Of a DNA stretch of 35,360 bases, positions 1-35,360 are shown in pieces. Location of the stretch: the NCBI GenBank assembly GCA_049970635.1, contig JBMFMO010000002.1, positions 1 through 35,360 on the forward strand, in the 5' to 3' direction. The notes under the pieces were generated by a model, which saw only the letters and a program-made list of their open reading frames with translations, was not told the DNA's origin and ran no database searches. The translations under genes and the position numbers were made by a program. The DNA is from Minisyncoccia bacterium (lineage in GTDB: Bacteria; Patescibacteriota; Minisyncoccia; UBA6257; HR35). Every line of letters begins with the position of its first letter. Position 1 is the stretch's first letter.

Positions 1-71
1 TTTTCTTAATAATTGATTTATTGTTGGCATTATAATATAATTTTAATATAATTTTAAAAAATCTAACTGAA

Positions 72-137
72 CACAGACAGCACAGGCTTACGCAGAAAAC
101 ACAGAAAATATTTCTGCAAATTCTGTTTTAAATGCAG
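72..137. repeat. Phased CRCAG word cluster upstream of tRNA-Phe
   Basis: cacag at 72, 81 and 100 and cgcag at 91, giving 9-10 nt phasing. Inverted ctgc/tctg/tgcag words follow at 113-137. These are GC-containing words in an AT-rich spacer. Confidence 0.35.
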
Positions 138-181
138 GATAAAGATTTTGTTATATAATATTATAAGATAATTATATCATA

Positions 182-253
182 GCCTGGGTAGCTCAGTGGT
201 AGAGCGCTTGCCTGAAGAGCAAGGCGTCGGGGGTTCGATTCCCTCCCCAGGCA
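182..253 (+). tRNA. tRNA-Phe (anticodon GAA)
   Basis: Hand-folded 72-nt cloverleaf. Acceptor GCCTGGG/CCCAGGC, D arm GCTC/GAGC, anticodon stem CTTGC/GCAAG with loop CTGAAGA, T arm GGGGG-TTCGATT-CCCTC, discriminator A. No encoded CCA. Confidence 0.93.
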
Positions 254-255
254 CA

Positions 256-466
256 ACCGCGGATAATTTTATAGCCGCTGATTAACGCGGATTATTTTAG
301 AACCGCGGATTTACGCTGATAGTAATAAGCCGCGGATAGACGCTGATAAATTTATAACCACGGATGAACGCGGATGAATTTAGAACCGCGGACGAACGCT
401 GATAAATAAAAACCGCGGATAAACGCGGATTTATTTTCAGCCGCGGATGAACGCGGATTATTTATT
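256..466. repeat. About 28-bp tandem array, 7.5 units, each with two CGC(G/T)GAT half-sites
   Basis: CGCKGAT words start at 258, 276, 286, 304, 314, 331, 341, 359, 369, 387, 397, 414, 424, 442 and 452. Spacings alternate strictly between 10 and 17-18 nt. The array starts 3 nt after the tRNA-Phe 3' end. In several units CCGCG..CGCGG can form a 5-bp hairpin. Confidence 0.9.
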
Positions 467-510
467 CGTGATCCATTCGTGTAATCTATTCGTGAATAAT
501 TCGTGTAATA
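464..510. repeat. ATTCGTG word array, 4 copies as 2 x 24 bp
   Basis: attcgtg occurs with its cgtg core at 467, 478, 491 and 502 (spacing 11, 13, 11). It continues directly from the 28-bp array and ends just before the rpmG stop codon. Confidence 0.8.
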
Positions 511-516
511 TAAATT

Positions 517-678
517 TTATCTTCTTGATTCTTTATGTTTTGTGTGTTTTTTGCACCACTTACAAAATTTTTTTAATTCAAGTTTTTTTTCACTTCCCTT
601 TTTCTTCCAAATAAAATAATTTACATGATTGCATTCACTACACTTTAATCTTATTAAATTTCTTTTTTTAACTGCCAT
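517..678 (-). CDS. rpmG: 50S ribosomal protein L33, C4 zinc-ribbon form
   Basis: Hand translation gives 53 aa: MAVKKRNLIRLKCSECNHVNYFIWKKKGSEKKLELKKFCKWCKKHTKHKESRR. This shows the typical L33 pattern with CxxC...CxxC. It is below the size cut-off of the supplied ORF track. Confidence 0.88.
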   Translation of the reverse strand: MAVKKRNLIRLKCSECNHVNYFIWKKKGSEKKLELKKFCKWCKKHTKHKESRR

Positions 679-693
679 TTTTTAATTTTAATC
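642..693. repeat. Direct repeat copy A, the functional rpmG 5' end plus upstream spacer
   Basis: The 52 nt at 642-693 match 916-966 except for one T in a homopolymer (7 T versus 6 T). Confidence 0.95.
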
Positions 694-915
694 TTATTAA
701 TATATTCTATTTAAAAAAATGATTTAAAAATCTTTGTTTTTGAATAAATTTTCATTTTAACAAGGGCCAGAAGATCAATTCATTATCTGCTGTTAATTGA
801 AGCCTTCCCCAGGGTTTGTGTTGAAAAATAATAGGTAAATCTAGATATCAAAAAATGCTTATAAAATCTTGTTTTTGTTAATTCCGACGTTTTTATTTAA
901 AATTTTTATTACAAA

Positions 916-966
916 ACTTTAATCTTATTAAATTTCTTTTTTAACTGCCATTTTTTAATTTTAATC
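916..966. repeat. Direct repeat copy B, abutting and overlapping the murA stop
   Basis: These 51 nt match 642-693. They include the last murA codon plus stop (gat taa on the minus strand), a 9-nt spacer and the first codons of rpmG. Confidence 0.95.
928..951 (-). pseudogene. Truncated, frameshifted duplicate of the rpmG start (MAVKKEI*)
   Basis: ATG at 951-949 is followed by the same codons as rpmG. One fewer A in the A-run shifts the frame into a TAA at 930-928. Confidence 0.8.
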
Positions 967-2211
967 AAATCTTTGGATTTTTGCTCCTAATTTTTTTAAT
1001 CTTTCTTCAATTTTTTCATAACCCCTATCAATTTTTTCTGCTTCTTGGATAATTGTTTCACCACTTGCAACTAATCCTGCAATTATTAATGCTATTCCAC
1101 TTCTTATATCTAAAGATTTTACCTCCTTTCCTTTTAATGGTGTTGGTCCTATAAATATTGCTCTATGTGGGTCTAAAATCTCTGCATTTGCTCCCATATA
1201 TATAAGCTCATTAACATAAGAAAATCTATTTTCATATAACCAATCATGAATTAATGTTACTCCTTTTGCTTGTGTTGCTAAAACACCAAATGGTGGCTGC
1301 ATATCTGTTGGGAATTTTGGATGAAGCCCTGTTTGAATCTTTGTACCTACAATATCTGATGGAAAAACTTTTAAAGAATTTTTTCCCAATTCATATTTTA
1401 TTTTCATTTCATCCATTAATATAAAAAGTGCATCTAAATCTTCTTCTTTTATATCTAAAATCTCTATCCTACTTCTTGTTGCTGCTGCTAATGCTACAAA
1501 TGTTCCTGTTTCAATTTGATCTGGTGGGATTTTAAATCTTATATTCCTTTTTATCTTTTCTCTTCCTTCTATTTCTAAAAAATGTGTGCCTATACCTTTT
1601 ATTTTAACTCCTAATAATTTTAAAAACAAGCATAAACTAACAACATGGGGTTCTATTGCTGCAAGCCTTATTTTAACCCTTTTAGGAATCAATGATAAAA
1701 ATAAAAGAAGGGTTTCTGTTGCTGTAACACTTATCTCTTTTAATCTTACTTCATAAGATTTCAATTTTCCAAATCTTCCTTCTAATGCTTCATTTGTTTT
1801 TATCTCGCAGCCTAAATTTTTTAATGTGTTAATGTGAACATCTATCGGCCTTGCCCCTATTATATCTCCTCCTGGTCTAAACATCTTAACTTTCTTAAAT
1901 AATGCTAACATTGGCCCCAAAAATAAAATTGATGCCCTAAGTTTTCTAAATGCATCGATCCTACAATCTTCATAATGAACCTTTTCAGAATTAATAATTA
2001 AACTATTATTTTGCCATTCAATTTCAGCACCTAAATGTTTTAATATCTCTATAATAACAAAGACATCAGCAATTTTAGGTACATTATCTAATATTGTCCT
2101 TCCCTTATTTAAAATTGATCCAACAAGTATAGGAAGTACAGCATTTTTAGAGCCTCCAACCTTTATTTTCCCAGATAATTTTTTACCACCTTCTATTAAA
2201 AAATATCCCAT
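961..2211 (-). CDS. murA: UDP-N-acetylglucosamine 1-carboxyvinyltransferase
   Basis: 416-aa ORF. N-terminal GGSKNAVLPIL, HPKFPTDMQ and IDRGYEKIEERL blocks align with E. coli MurA. The active-site loop reads RPGGDIIGARPIDVH. Confidence 0.93.
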   Translation of the reverse strand: MGYFLIEGGKKLSGKIKVGGSKNAVLPILVGSILNKGRTILDNVPKIADVFVIIEILKHLGAEIEWQNNSLIINSEKVHYEDCRIDAFRKLRASILFLGPMLALFKKVKMFRPGGDIIGARPIDVHINTLKNLGCEIKTNEALEGRFGKLKSYEVRLKEISVTATETLLLFLSLIPKRVKIRLAAIEPHVVSLCLFLKLLGVKIKGIGTHFLEIEGREKIKRNIRFKIPPDQIETGTFVALAAATRSRIEILDIKEEDLDALFILMDEMKIKYELGKNSLKVFPSDIVGTKIQTGLHPKFPTDMQPPFGVLATQAKGVTLIHDWLYENRFSYVNELIYMGANAEILDPHRAIFIGPTPLKGKEVKSLDIRSGIALIIAGLVASGETIIQEAEKIDRGYEKIEERLKKLGAKIQRFD

Positions 2212-18900: not shown

Positions 18901-19146
18901 TTATGGTGTTGGTGGTGTTGGTGTAGCTTCTCCAGGCGCTGGTGGTGTAGGTGGTGTAGGTGGTGTTGGTGGTGTTGGTGGTGTTGGTGGTGTGACTTCT
19001 CCACCTGGAACAGTTGGAGCTGTTGGAGCTGTTGGAGCTGTTACAGCACCTCTTTGTCTAACATAATACCAAGCAATTGCACCTAAAACTATTAAAATAA
19101 TTATGACTATAATTGCAGCTGTTGTATTCTTTTTTTGACCCTCCAT
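18901..19146 (-). CDS. Small membrane-anchored Pro/Thr-rich protein
   Basis: 81 aa. An N-terminal TM anchor (AAIIVIIILIVLGAIAWYYV) is followed by (APT)3 and (PPT)n tracts. These are encoded by 9-bp tandem repeats at 18941-18994 (6 units) and 19013-19039 (3 units). The gene has its own promoter and leader motif. Confidence 0.6.
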   Translation of the reverse strand: MEGQKKNTTAAIIVIIILIVLGAIAWYYVRQRGAVTAPTAPTAPTVPGGEVTPPTPPTPPTPPTPPTPPAPGEATPTPPTP

Positions 19147-34664: not shown

Positions 34665-35136
34665 AAAATATTATAAAGCATTTAAGGGATTTTCAATAAT
34701 AGAGATGATGGTTGTATTATTGTTTTTTGTTGGCCTAACTATTCTTTTAGCATCAAGGCCATTTTCCTTATCTTCTGAATATCAAATTGTGCAACAAGAT
34801 GCAAAAAAAATAAAACAAATTTTAGATACTGCAAGAGAAAAAGCAATAATGAATGAGAAGGGTGTAAACTGGGGAGTTTATCTTGTTGGAAGCTCTTCAA
34901 CATACTATATTTTTGCAGGAGATAATTTTAAAGAAGCTATAGAATATACTCCATATTTTTTAGATTCTTCAAATATATTTTTAGATCCTGCAAGTGGAAC
35001 AGTAAAAGAGATAGTTTTTCAAAGATATAAAGGTTATGCAACAAATACACAAATAGAAATAGGTTTAAAAAATAAAAATATAAAAGCAAAAGTAAAGATA
35101 AATTATTTCGGAAATATTGATTTTGAGATTTATTAG
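34654..35136 (+). CDS. Type IV pilin / pseudopilin with a class III signal peptide
   Basis: KAFKG|FSIIEMMVVLLFFVGLTILLA is the prepilin cleavage/N-methylation motif, with Glu at +5. I prefer the ATG at 34654 to the TTG at 34642 used by the track. Confidence 0.8.
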   Translation: MTIKKYYKAFKGFSIIEMMVVLLFFVGLTILLASRPFSLSSEYQIVQQDAKKIKQILDTAREKAIMNEKGVNWGVYLVGSSSTYYIFAGDNFKEAIEYTPYFLDSSNIFLDPASGTVKEIVFQRYKGYATNTQIEIGLKNKNIKAKVKINYFGNIDFEIY

Positions 35137-35360
35137 TTTATAATTATAAAGATGAAGAAGGTAATAATTTATACAACAAGTTATTGCCCATTTTGCCAAA
35201 TATTGATTTTGAGATTTATTAGTTTATAATTATAAAGATGAAGAAGGTAATAATTTATACAACAAGTTATTGCCCATTTTGCCAAATATTGATTTTGAGA
35301 TTTATTAGTTTATAATTATAAAGATGAAGAAGGTAATAATTTATACAACAAGTTATTGCC
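35112..35360. repeat. Perfect 86-bp tandem repeat, 2.9 or more copies, running off the window edge
   Basis: Units at 35112-35197, 35198-35283 and 35284-35360 (partial) are identical by eye. Each unit holds the last 8 codons (including stop) of the pilin gene, a 15-nt spacer and the first 46 nt of a glutaredoxin-like gene. Confidence 0.95.
35152..35229 (+). pseudogene. Truncated glutaredoxin/NrdH-like start (MKKVIIYTTSYCPFCQ...) created by the tandem repeat
   Basis: The ATG at 35152 gives MKKVIIYTTSYCPFCQ, then runs into the repeated pilin 3' end (ILILRFISL-stop). A second identical copy lies at 35238-35315. A third begins at 35324 and continues beyond the window. Confidence 0.7.

What the first reader, a model, noticed from the sequence alone, without database searches (positions are those of the whole stretch)
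256..510. Phased GC-word array (28-bp unit x 7.5, then ATTCGTG x 4) starting 3 nt after tRNA-Phe
Fifteen CGC(G/T)GAT words share one orientation, with strictly alternating 10 and 17-18 nt spacing. Four ATTCGTG words follow at 11-13 nt spacing. Together they fill the whole convergent spacer between tRNA-Phe (+) and rpmG (-). In a genome this AT-rich, such a dense ordered set of CG-containing words is very unlikely to be neutral. The roughly one-helical-turn pairing of half-sites resembles an iteron or centromere-like protein-binding array. Several units can also fold as CCGCG-loop-CGCGG mini-hairpins, so a REP-like or multi-terminator role is an alternative. Its position at a tRNA 3' end also fits a relic of an integrated element.
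Basis: partly seen in the sequence, partly recalled or inferred. Interest (0 to 1): 0.65.

Follow-up and report, generated by a model that had tools for sequence, protein, structure and literature searches.

The report
Short-word palindromic repeat remnant beside tRNA-Phe
The GC-rich word array between tRNA-Phe and rpmG is real, but it looks like a locally amplified remnant of a widespread selfish repeat family (7-base words about every 10 bases, which elsewhere flank small GxxExxY nuclease genes or sit in-frame inside genes), not a replication or partition site.

Summary
Fifteen same-strand CGCKGAT-type words lie at 258-458 with 18/10-nt alternating spacing, followed by four ATTCGTG words at 464-505. 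They fill the tRNA-Phe/rpmG spacer of a 27% GC Patescibacteria genome.

The iteron/centromere reading is not supported:
- No rep, par or integrase gene lies in the 35 kb.
- The sister genome (MurA 90% identical) has word arrays at both homologous positions, but with different words, number and spacing (10-11 nt).
- More distant relatives have no such array downstream of rpmG.

The unit CCGCGGAT-NN-ACGCGGAT is the terminus of a cross-phylum family of segmented palindromes. These are forward words followed by inverted ATCCGCG words, with a 10-nt period, in contigs of 27-73% GC. Family members occur empty in intergenic DNA, or in-frame inside genes (gatB, lepA, pilM, a metal ATPase). Others enclose a single GxxExxY (PD-(D/E)XK) gene. 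GxxExxY genes picked by protein alone mostly carry inverted arrays of lineage-specific C-R-C-R-G-A-N words.

Best reading: a non-autonomous MITE/REP/RPE-like remnant, expanded by tandem duplication (28-nt unit, 83-nt super-unit), perhaps acting incidentally as a terminator. Mobilisation by GxxExxY is inferred, not shown.

The parts
72..126 (+). Small word palindrome upstream of tRNA-Phe. Forward words CACAGAC (72), CACAGGC (81), CGCAGAA (91), CACAGAA (100), then inverted TTCTGC (112) and TTCTGT (121).
   Evidence: Sequence read. Absent from the sister genome in alignment A1. Same word class (C-R-C-R-G-A-A, 9-11 nt apart) as the flanks of GxxExxY genes in L292 and L287.
182..254 (+). tRNA-Phe (GAA). 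The first array word begins 2-4 nt after its 3' end.
   Evidence: ARAGORN; Rfam tRNA 71.6 bits.
256..459 (+). Solo forward array: 15 CGCKGAT-type words arranged as 7.5 units of 27-28 nt, each unit CCGCGGAT-NN-ACGCKGAT plus a 9-10 nt A/T-rich spacer. The units group into an 83-nt super-unit repeated about 2.5 times.
   Evidence: Its 18-mer CCGCGGATGAACGCGGAT (440-457) is found exactly in 28/120 genome loci, 6/32 viral loci and 25/117 metagenome loci.
413..456 (+). Two mini-hairpins, CCGCG-6 nt-CGCGG, each followed by a T-rich run (413-428 and 441-456). Terminator-like on the + strand; 428-413 is also terminator-like on the - strand.
   Evidence: scan_promoters_terminators: 3 found against a shuffle mean of 1.0.
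464..505 (+). Four ATTCGTG words (reverse complement CACGAAT) 11-13 nt apart, next to the rpmG stop codon. They are homologous to the right arm of a CGAAT/ATTCG word palindrome in the sister genome.
   Evidence: alignment A2; sister sequence. They can pair with forward words 452/442/424/414 through G.U pairs on the + strand RNA (MFE -27.7 kcal/mol, z -1.4).
517..678 (-). rpmG (ribosomal protein L33). Its 3' end faces the array.
   Evidence: ORF. The syntenic sister gene carries the PF00471 Ribosomal_L33 hit, and the window ORF's own homologs are PF00471/50S L33 proteins.

Best explanation
The spacer holds remnants of a widespread class of selfish, hairpin-forming repeats built from 7-base words of the form C-R-C-R-G-A-N, repeated about once per helical turn. 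A complete element is a forward word array followed by the inverted array, making a segmented palindrome. Complete elements are either empty (MITE/REP/RPE-like) or enclose a single GxxExxY PD-(D/E)XK nuclease gene.

In this window, 256-459 is a solo forward arm. Its two-word terminus CCGCGGAT-NN-ACGCGGAT was amplified in place by slippage or unequal recombination: first a 28-nt unit, then an 83-nt triple unit about 2.5 times. This amplification produces the strict 10/18 alternation. Region 464-505 is the right arm of a second palindrome that abuts rpmG.

Shown:
- The anatomy and its non-randomness.
- The homologous but differently built arrays in the sister genome.
- The identical termini in other phyla.
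- The association with GxxExxY genes.
- In-frame insertions elsewhere.

Inferred:
- That the words are binding sites for a GxxExxY-type nuclease that moves or homes the elements.
- That this copy is non-autonomous and essentially neutral.
- That its CCGCG/CGCGG mini-hairpins with T-rich tails, and the G.U-paired arm-to-arm stem, incidentally help end or protect the convergent tRNA-Phe and rpmG transcripts.
For: - Array real and unique in the window.
- Higher-order 83-nt period: 80% match against 74% for the 28-nt period; unit identity highest at lag 3.
- Sister genome L270 (MurA 90% identical): the tRNA-Phe 3' flank starts with the same ACCGCGGATA and then has 14 degenerate C(G/A/T)GAT words 10-15 nt apart. 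The rpmG 3' flank has about 12 ATTCGT(G/T) words preceded by forward CGAAT words. A periplasmic-binding-protein gene lies between the two halves.
- Relatives with 72-79% identical L33 have no array after rpmG.
- Metagenome scan with a 23-base pattern: 117 loci with GC 27-73%, where by my rough estimate well under one match is expected by chance.
- Convergent forward-then-inverted pairs in 24 loci against 5 divergent.
- Same-strand word spacing peaks at 10 nt.
- Near-identical copies between consecutive pil genes of a Patescibacteria MAG.
- 82% identical 330-nt non-coding elements on two separate metagenome contigs.
- In-frame insertions in gatB, pilM and a metal ATPase; an insertion also splits lepA, but there the inserted gene carries an internal stop. 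11 of 37 word clusters in loci below 50% GC lie inside long open frames.
- All four clear free-standing GxxExxY genes in the 1.7 Mb of word-selected DNA are bounded by the arrays; a fifth, weaker match is the GxxExxY domain inserted in-frame in gatB.
- GxxExxY genes chosen by protein alone: 4 of 8 plasmid loci have flanking word inverted repeats reached by at most 1 of 300 shuffles, and 3 more have adjacent word arrays. Three further contigs (Shapirobacteria L287, L288, and the AT-rich L292) show the same.
- The GxxExxY family keeps PD..ExK residues and a confident PD-(D/E)XK fold.
Against: - Only one such locus lies in the 35 kb, and no GxxExxY gene in the window or in 21 kb of the sister genome, so multi-copy status in this genome is untested.
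- The forward array has no matching inverted arm. ATTCGTG differs from ATCCGCG at two positions, and the predicted arm-to-arm stem is not significantly better than shuffles (z -1.4).
- No target-site duplication or empty site was defined.
- A GGAT-word array persists right after tRNA-Phe in both genomes although the surrounding spacer has diverged. This could mean selection for a host function rather than neutrality.
- A 7-nt word shared across phyla could partly be convergence.
- Binding or cleavage by GxxExxY proteins has never been shown. I found no paper on it.
Confidence: 0.6

Rival explanations
1. Selected transcription terminator or RNA 3'-end structure. The array is kept because its hairpins end or stabilise the tRNA-Phe and rpmG transcripts. 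This is compatible with a selfish origin, but here function is the reason for persistence.
For: Terminator-like CCGCG-loop-CGCGG plus T-run at 413-428 and 441-456 (+) and 428-413 (-). The whole 250-520 + strand folds better than shuffles (z -4.95). ATTCGTG pairs with CGCGGAU only through G.U, so only on the + strand RNA. Word arrays persist at both gene ends in the sister genome. MITEs with terminator-like activity are known (PMC10969869).
Against: Stems are only 5 bp. One-base changes (CGCTGAT, CACGGAT) break pairs without compensation in 5 of 7 units (sequence). Only 2 of 7 units have a T-rich tail. Seven tandem terminators are unnecessary. The sister's ACGGAT array after the tRNA has no evident hairpins.
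Confidence: 0.2
2. Host protein-binding array on DNA (iteron, centromere, nucleoid or regulatory protein).
For: The words are same-strand, dense and CG-rich in a 27% GC genome. The 10-nt half-site spacing equals one helical turn. The sister array also has a 10-11 nt period.
Against: No rep, par, Xer or integrase gene in the 35 kb. No GC-skew switch. Successive pairs are 28 nt apart (about 2.7 turns), so they are not on one face. Word sequence, number and phasing differ in the 90%-identity sister. The same termini bound dispersed palindromes in unrelated phyla.
Confidence: 0.08
3. Home-grown minisatellite. A 10-11 nt or 28-nt unit arose and expanded by replication slippage alone. Its likeness to the CGCGGAT elements of other phyla is coincidence.
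For: Clear tandem and higher-order structure. Only one locus in the 35 kb. Rapid turnover between sisters.
Against: An exact 18-nt identity to element termini in dozens of unrelated contigs. A second element with the related CACAGAA word class lies 130 nt away and is absent in the sister. AT-rich contigs L155 and L172 carry the same words in palindromic or in-frame insertions.
Confidence: 0.08
4. Part of a tRNA-Phe read-through RNA that sponges a GGA-binding protein, in the manner of CsrB or RsmZ.
For: 10 of 15 words contain GGAU, and one (CACGGAUGA at 359) matches the CsrA/RsmE consensus CANGGANG as I know it. 11 of the 14 sister words contain GGAU.
Against: Five words are CGCUGAU or CGCGGAC, without GGAU. 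No csrA gene was seen in the 56 kb available. No Rfam hit. The family is palindromic DNA found inside coding regions elsewhere.
Confidence: 0.04

Closest known systems
REP/BIME elements and their RAYT transposases (REPINs) of Proteobacteria (PMC2817692)
   Same: Short GC-rich palindromic units at gene 3' ends and between operon genes. They are often in inverted pairs and composite arrays. A single-copy protein gene is flanked by the inverted units while many non-autonomous copies are dispersed.
   Different: The words here are 7 nt at a 10-nt period rather than 20-40-nt hairpins with a GTAG head. The partner gene is a PD-(D/E)XK GxxExxY protein, not a Y1/HUH RAYT. The same word occurs across phyla, whereas REPs are species-specific.
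Rickettsia palindromic elements (RPEs) and other prokaryotic MITEs (review PMC10969869)
   Same: Palindromic elements of about 100-150 nt that insert in intergenic DNA and, in-frame, within conserved protein genes. Here that is seen in gatB, pilM and a metal ATPase, with a further insertion splitting lepA.
   Different: RPEs are confined to Rickettsia and have no known partner gene. No target-site duplication was found here. The copy in the window is intergenic, and only one arm of each element is left.
Pneumococcal BOX elements (boxA-boxB(n)-boxC) and SPRITE
   Same: Modular intergenic repeats in which an internal module varies in copy number by tandem duplication. They have hairpin and terminator-like potential.
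   Different: Unrelated sequence, a larger module (45 nt), and species-restricted.
23S rRNA intervening sequences carrying small ORFs (for example the Coxiella IVS, PMC4990558)
   Same: A small selfish insertion bounded by inverted repeats that form a stem and enclose one small ORF. From my own recollection, not tested here: GxxExxY and four-helix-bundle proteins are the ORFs usually annotated in such IVSs.
   Different: The window element is not in an rRNA gene and has no ORF. RNase III processing was not tested.
Plasmid iterons and parC/parS-type centromeres
   Same: Same-strand direct repeats with roughly one-turn spacing of half-sites.
   Different: No adjacent rep or par gene. The words are much shorter (7-8 nt). 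The phasing is not conserved in the sister genome. The words occur as dispersed palindromes elsewhere.

Membership tests
   10 of 15 words are CRCRGAT. The others are CGCTGAT (x4) and CGCGGAC. The T variant is also seen in L040, L172 and L005.
   Within pairs the spacing is 10 nt, which is the family mode (10 nt in 260 and 221 neighbour pairs). Between pairs it is 17-18 nt, which is unusual for the family.
   The exact 18-mer of window 440-457 occurs in 59 fetched loci, and in both orientations in L024, L074, L179, L226 and L228.
   No ATCCGCG arm follows the forward array. The neighbouring ATTCGTG words differ at 2 of 7 positions and correspond to a different element in the sister genome. The window copy is therefore a solo arm.
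   Only 35 kb of this genome and 21 kb of the sister genome could be read, and neither has a PF13366 gene. The exact-protein look-ups for the window returned nothing.
MITE | Terminal inverted repeats, target-site duplication, less than about 500 bp, many copies, related autonomous element | tested here: inconclusive
   Size fits. Family members have inverted-repeat arms and near-identical dispersed copies. No target-site duplication or empty site was found. The autonomous partner is only inferred.
REP/RAYT (REPIN) | REP hairpin with a conserved 5' tetranucleotide, and a Y1 HUH RAYT gene flanked by REPs | tested here: not met
   The flanked gene is PF13366/TIGR04256 (E about 1e-41), not a RAYT. 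The words lack the REP architecture.
Iteron-type replication origin | Repeats next to a rep gene or origin features, with sequence and phasing conserved in relatives | tested here: not met
   No rep gene. No skew turn. Phasing not conserved in the sister.
Partition centromere (parS/parC) | Adjacent parA/parB or parR genes, or known parS consensus | tested here: not met
   No Par protein family among the window ORFs.
Intrinsic terminator | GC-rich stem of at least 5 bp followed directly by a U-run | tested here: inconclusive
   Three consensus matches against a shuffle mean of 1.0. The stems are minimal and most units lack the U-run.
CRISPR array | Repeats of 23-50 nt separated by unique spacers of similar length | tested here: not met
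   Words are 7-8 nt, with 2-3-nt and 9-10-nt A/T spacers that are themselves repeated.
Any Rfam family | Covariance-model match | tested here: not met
   Nothing but the tRNA in window 1-1500 at E up to 10. No match on word arrays in 15 family loci.

The most novel reading that the evidence does not exclude
Arrays of C-R-C-R-G-A-N words with a 10-nt period are the recognition ends of a so far undescribed, cross-phylum family of small mobile or homing elements. Their autonomous members encode only a GxxExxY PD-(D/E)XK nuclease. Their empty derivatives spread through intergenic DNA and, in-frame, into essential genes such as gatB, and also into lepA. The tRNA-Phe/rpmG spacer of this Patescibacteria genome holds decayed, locally amplified arms of such elements. 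This would give the large, function-unknown GxxExxY/PDDEXK_3 family its first proposed role.
Probability: 0.35. Interest if true: 0.75.

Novelty: new variant of a known kind. Interest (0 to 1): 0.5.

Why it matters
The array itself changes little for this genome. It is most likely selfish or neutral DNA at a convergent gene junction, and it should not be annotated as an origin, centromere or att site.

The wider pattern it led to is more useful. A recognisable sequence signature consists of 7-base C-R-C-R-G-A-N words about every 10 bases in inverted arrays. This signature:
- marks small insertions from AT-rich candidate-phyla bacteria to 70% GC soil bacteria;
- explains odd in-frame inserts in conserved proteins;
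- may contribute to contig breaks: one related contig ends inside such an array (L271);
- ties the uncharacterised GxxExxY nuclease family to specific DNA sites, which makes the family's function directly testable.

Tried and rejected
- Exact-protein look-ups of the window's L33 and MurA found no other contig of the same strain. Strain-level copy-number variation could not be checked.
- The first collection scan used a 16-base pattern. Only loci with several words were used.
- Relatives with about 65% identical MurA have murA-hsp20 instead of murA-rpmG and were uninformative. L33 relatives at 72-79% identity have other gene contexts and no array.
- Literature searches for the words, GxxExxY, PDDEXK_3, PF13366 and TIGR04256 gave nothing on flanking repeats.
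- Rfam gave no family for the arrays.
- GxxExxY has no phage tblastn hit and no PDB sequence relative. The fold search gave only generic PD-(D/E)XK nucleases with TM about 0.49, so it does not distinguish a DNA from an RNA substrate.
- A general link to tRNA 3' ends was rejected.
- The DnaA-box reading was rejected by inspection: ATCCGCG against ATCCACA differs at two positions that are critical by my knowledge of the DnaA-box consensus, and the words are dispersed palindromes.
- A DNA uptake sequence was rejected because the same word occurs in unrelated phyla.
- The arm-to-arm RNA stem in the window is not significant on its own (z -1.4). Its G.U pattern is best explained by duplication of one already mutated word, not by covariation.

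Full report
**1. Observation**

The region reads ...GGCACA-ACCGCGGATAATTTTATAG-CCGCTGATTAACGCGGAT....
- CGCKGAT occurs 13 times between 258 and 458, always on the + strand. There are also CACGGAT at 359 and CGCGGAC at 387.
- Start-to-start spacings are 18,10,18,10,17,10,18,10,18,10,17,10,18,10.
- The rest of the 35,360-base window has one further match. Shuffles give 0.5 on average and at most 3.
- ATTCGTG occurs four times, only at 464-505.
- tRNA-Phe is at 182-254 on the + strand. rpmG is at 517-678 on the - strand.
- TRF finds a 28-nt period at 74% match and a better 83-nt period at 80% match. The repeat finder shows the same 83-nt pair.
- Unit-by-unit identity is highest at lag 3.

The array is therefore about 2.5 copies of a triple unit, each unit being CCGCGGAT-NN-ACGCKGAT plus a 9-10-nt A/T spacer. 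This duplication history is enough to explain the strict alternation. A k-mer scan finds no other non-coding word array in the window.

**2. Context**

The window is core chromosome of a Patescibacteria (Parcubacteria-like) bacterium at about 27% GC (homolog names).
- Genes include murA, mraY, a D-Ala-D-Ala carboxypeptidase, khpA, rpoC, rpoB, ftsK, L7/L12, L10, rbfA, infB, clpB, a class II aminoacyl-tRNA synthetase and type IV pilus genes.
- There is no rep, par, integrase or GxxExxY gene.
- There is no GC-skew turn at the locus.
- Rfam finds only the tRNA.

**3. Relatives**

The closest relative found is L270, a 246-kb JGI contig with MurA 90% identical and the same gene order.
- Immediately after its tRNA-Phe the same ACCGCGGATA is followed by 14 degenerate words (mostly ACGGAT or GCGGAT). 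Their spacing is mostly 10-12 nt (range 10-15), with no inverted arm.
- Immediately after its rpmG stop there are about 12 ATTCGT(G/T) words 10-11 nt apart. These are preceded by forward CGAAT/CACGAAT words, giving a complete palindrome of a related word.
- A periplasmic-binding-protein gene lies between the two halves.

The two sub-arrays of the finding therefore have separate homologs. Their positions are conserved. Word sequence, number and phasing are not.
- A Logan contig of the same species breaks inside the ATTCGTG array.
- Relatives with 72-79% identical L33 have other neighbours and no array.
- Those with about 65% identical MurA lack the murA-rpmG junction.
- The window also has a small palindrome of CACAGA/CGCAGA words upstream of the tRNA (72-126) that the sister lacks.

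**4. The same words elsewhere**

A metagenome scan used a 23-base pattern (pair plus third word). By my rough estimate well under one match is expected by chance, yet it returned 117 contigs with GC from 27% to 73%. The genome scan added Acidobacteriota, Planctomycetota, Gemmatimonadota, Verrucomicrobiota, Treponema and Patescibacteria.

The usual architecture is a forward array followed 35-260 nt later by the inverted array. The outermost word lies in (G/C)CCGCGGAT and the spacers are often complementary too.
- Same-strand spacing peaks sharply at 10 nt.
- The exact 18-mer of window 440-457 is present in 59 fetched loci.
- A Patescibacteria MAG has three near-identical copies between consecutive pilM/N/O-like genes and a fourth inside pilM.
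- Two different metagenome contigs share an 82% identical 330-nt non-coding element bounded by the arrays.
- AT-rich contigs (27-28% GC) carry the same words, and related CGAAT- and CCGAAT-type word palindromes.

**5. Insertions in genes**

- In L172, three word palindromes lie in one open frame of a heavy-metal-binding-domain protein that reads like a P-type ATPase.
- In L194, gatB carries two in-frame inserts. One is an empty palindrome. The other is a whole PDDEXK_3 domain with its arrays.
- In L292 (28% GC), lepA is interrupted by CGCGGAA/CACGGAA/CACAGAA/CGCAGAA words, a GxxExxY gene, and TTCCGCG/TCTGTG words.
- Among contigs below 50% GC, 11 of 37 word clusters lie inside long open frames.

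This is the behaviour described for Rickettsia palindromic elements (PMC10969869).

**6. The GxxExxY link**

An HMM search of all 1.7 Mb of fetched DNA found four clear free-standing GxxExxY genes, each bounded by the arrays, plus the gatB-embedded domain as a fifth, weaker match. To avoid ascertainment by words, I then picked GxxExxY genes by protein.

Eight plasmid loci show single-gene insertions between housekeeping genes such as fabD|fabG and radA|FAD-protein. Their flanks are:
- Bacteroides and Bernardetia: inverted CACAGAG/CTCTGTG arrays.
- Sphingomonas: CGCGAAG/CTTCGCG.
- Treponema: CACGGATTCG/CGAATCCGTG.
- For these four loci, at most 1 of 300 shuffles reached the observed inverted repeat.
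- Gemmatirosa: a complete CGCGGAT palindrome just downstream.
- Fusobacteria and Prevotella: other word arrays.
- One locus is unclear.

Three further contigs found through protein homologs behave the same way, including a Candidatus Shapirobacteria gene with CACAGAA x3 | gene | TTCTGTG x3.

The family keeps G..GxxExxY..PD..ExK residues. It folds confidently (pLDDT 89.6) into a PD-(D/E)XK nuclease fold whose nearest solved structures are only generic: lambda exonuclease, Cas4 and splicing endonucleases, with TM about 0.49. The one classification paper that lists the family gives its function as unknown, with multiple transfers between divisions (PMC3424549). I found no paper describing the word flanks and no Rfam family for them.

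**7. Interpretation**

Shown:
- The array is real.
- It is a tandemly amplified two-word unit.
- The unit equals the terminus of a cross-phylum family of segmented palindromes.
- These palindromes occur empty, in-frame in genes, or around a GxxExxY gene.
- The sister genome keeps word arrays at both gene ends but not their design.

Inferred:
- The words are binding sites of GxxExxY-type nucleases that move or home the elements.
- The window copy is a non-autonomous, largely neutral remnant.
- Its mini-hairpins with T-rich tails, and the G.U-paired stem between the last four forward words and the four ATTCGTG words (not significant, z -1.4), may help end the convergent tRNA-Phe and rpmG transcripts.

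The main caveat is the persistence of a GGAT-word array flush with the tRNA 3' end in both genomes. This could reflect selection for a local function. I give the terminator or RNA-end rival 0.2, and a DNA-binding host function 0.08.

**8. Comparison and novelty**

Functionally the closest known systems are:
- REP/BIME with RAYT: inverted units flanking a single gene, plus many empty copies.
- RPEs: in-frame insertions.
- BOX elements: variable internal module number.
- rRNA intervening sequences: a stem enclosing one small ORF.

Membership in REP/RAYT, iteron, centromere, CRISPR or any Rfam family was tested and not met. Membership in the word-array family is met for the word, the dyad terminus and the within-pair spacing, but not for the inverted arm. 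It cannot be tested for copy number or a partner gene in this genome.

I rate the local feature as ordinary selfish DNA. I rate the family it belongs to as a new variant of a known kind, with a 0.35 chance that it is a new nuclease-driven mobile element family.

Noticed in passing
window 72-126: Second small word palindrome upstream of tRNA-Phe: CACAGAC, CACAGGC, CGCAGAA, CACAGAA, then TTCTGC, TTCTGT. It is absent from the sister genome. It uses the same word class as the flanks of GxxExxY genes in L292 and L287.
   Followed up: partly
window 679-960: A 282-nt insert lies between rpmG and murA, bounded by a roughly 50-nt direct duplication of the rpmG start region (637-688 and 911-962). In the sister genome the murA stop abuts the rpmG start. 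The nature of the insert is unknown, and there is no Rfam hit.
   Followed up: partly
window 35112-35360: An 86-bp unit is repeated 2.9 times at 100% identity at the very end of the contig. It contains the start of a glutaredoxin-like ORF (MKKVIIYTTSYCPFC). Most likely an assembly artefact.
   Followed up: partly
L194 3753-5945 (- strand): A gatB gene carries two in-frame inserts: a 48-aa word palindrome, and a complete PDDEXK_3/GxxExxY domain flanked by word arrays. A second long ORF on the same contig (3-2423) has two more word inserts.
   Followed up: partly
L292 1632-2768: In a 28% GC contig, lepA is split by a GxxExxY gene with CGCGGAA/CACAGAA-type word flanks. The inserted gene has an internal stop, so either lepA is disrupted or the assembly has an error.
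   Followed up: no
L215 4240-4600 and L255 4600-4960: A 330-nt non-coding element, 82% identical between two separate metagenome contigs, is bounded by CGCGGAT/ATCCGCG arrays. It has internal hairpins and no Rfam match.
   Followed up: partly
window 208-222 compared with L270 tRNA-Phe: The anticodon stem of tRNA-Phe differs from the sister by two fully compensated base pairs (TTG..CAA against GGG..CCC).
   Followed up: no
window 18904-19042: 9-nt coding-like repeats (TGGTGGTGT x6, GTTGGAGCT x3) lie between tRNA-Glu and tRNA-Val. The - strand ORF 18901-19146 would encode a Thr/Pro-rich 81-aa peptide and has no Pfam hit.
   Followed up: no
L270 12005-13171: The sister genome has a periplasmic-binding-protein gene (Peripla_BP_6) exactly between the tRNA-side and rpmG-side word arrays. 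The window lacks it. This is a gene gain or loss located between the two repeat arms.
   Followed up: partly
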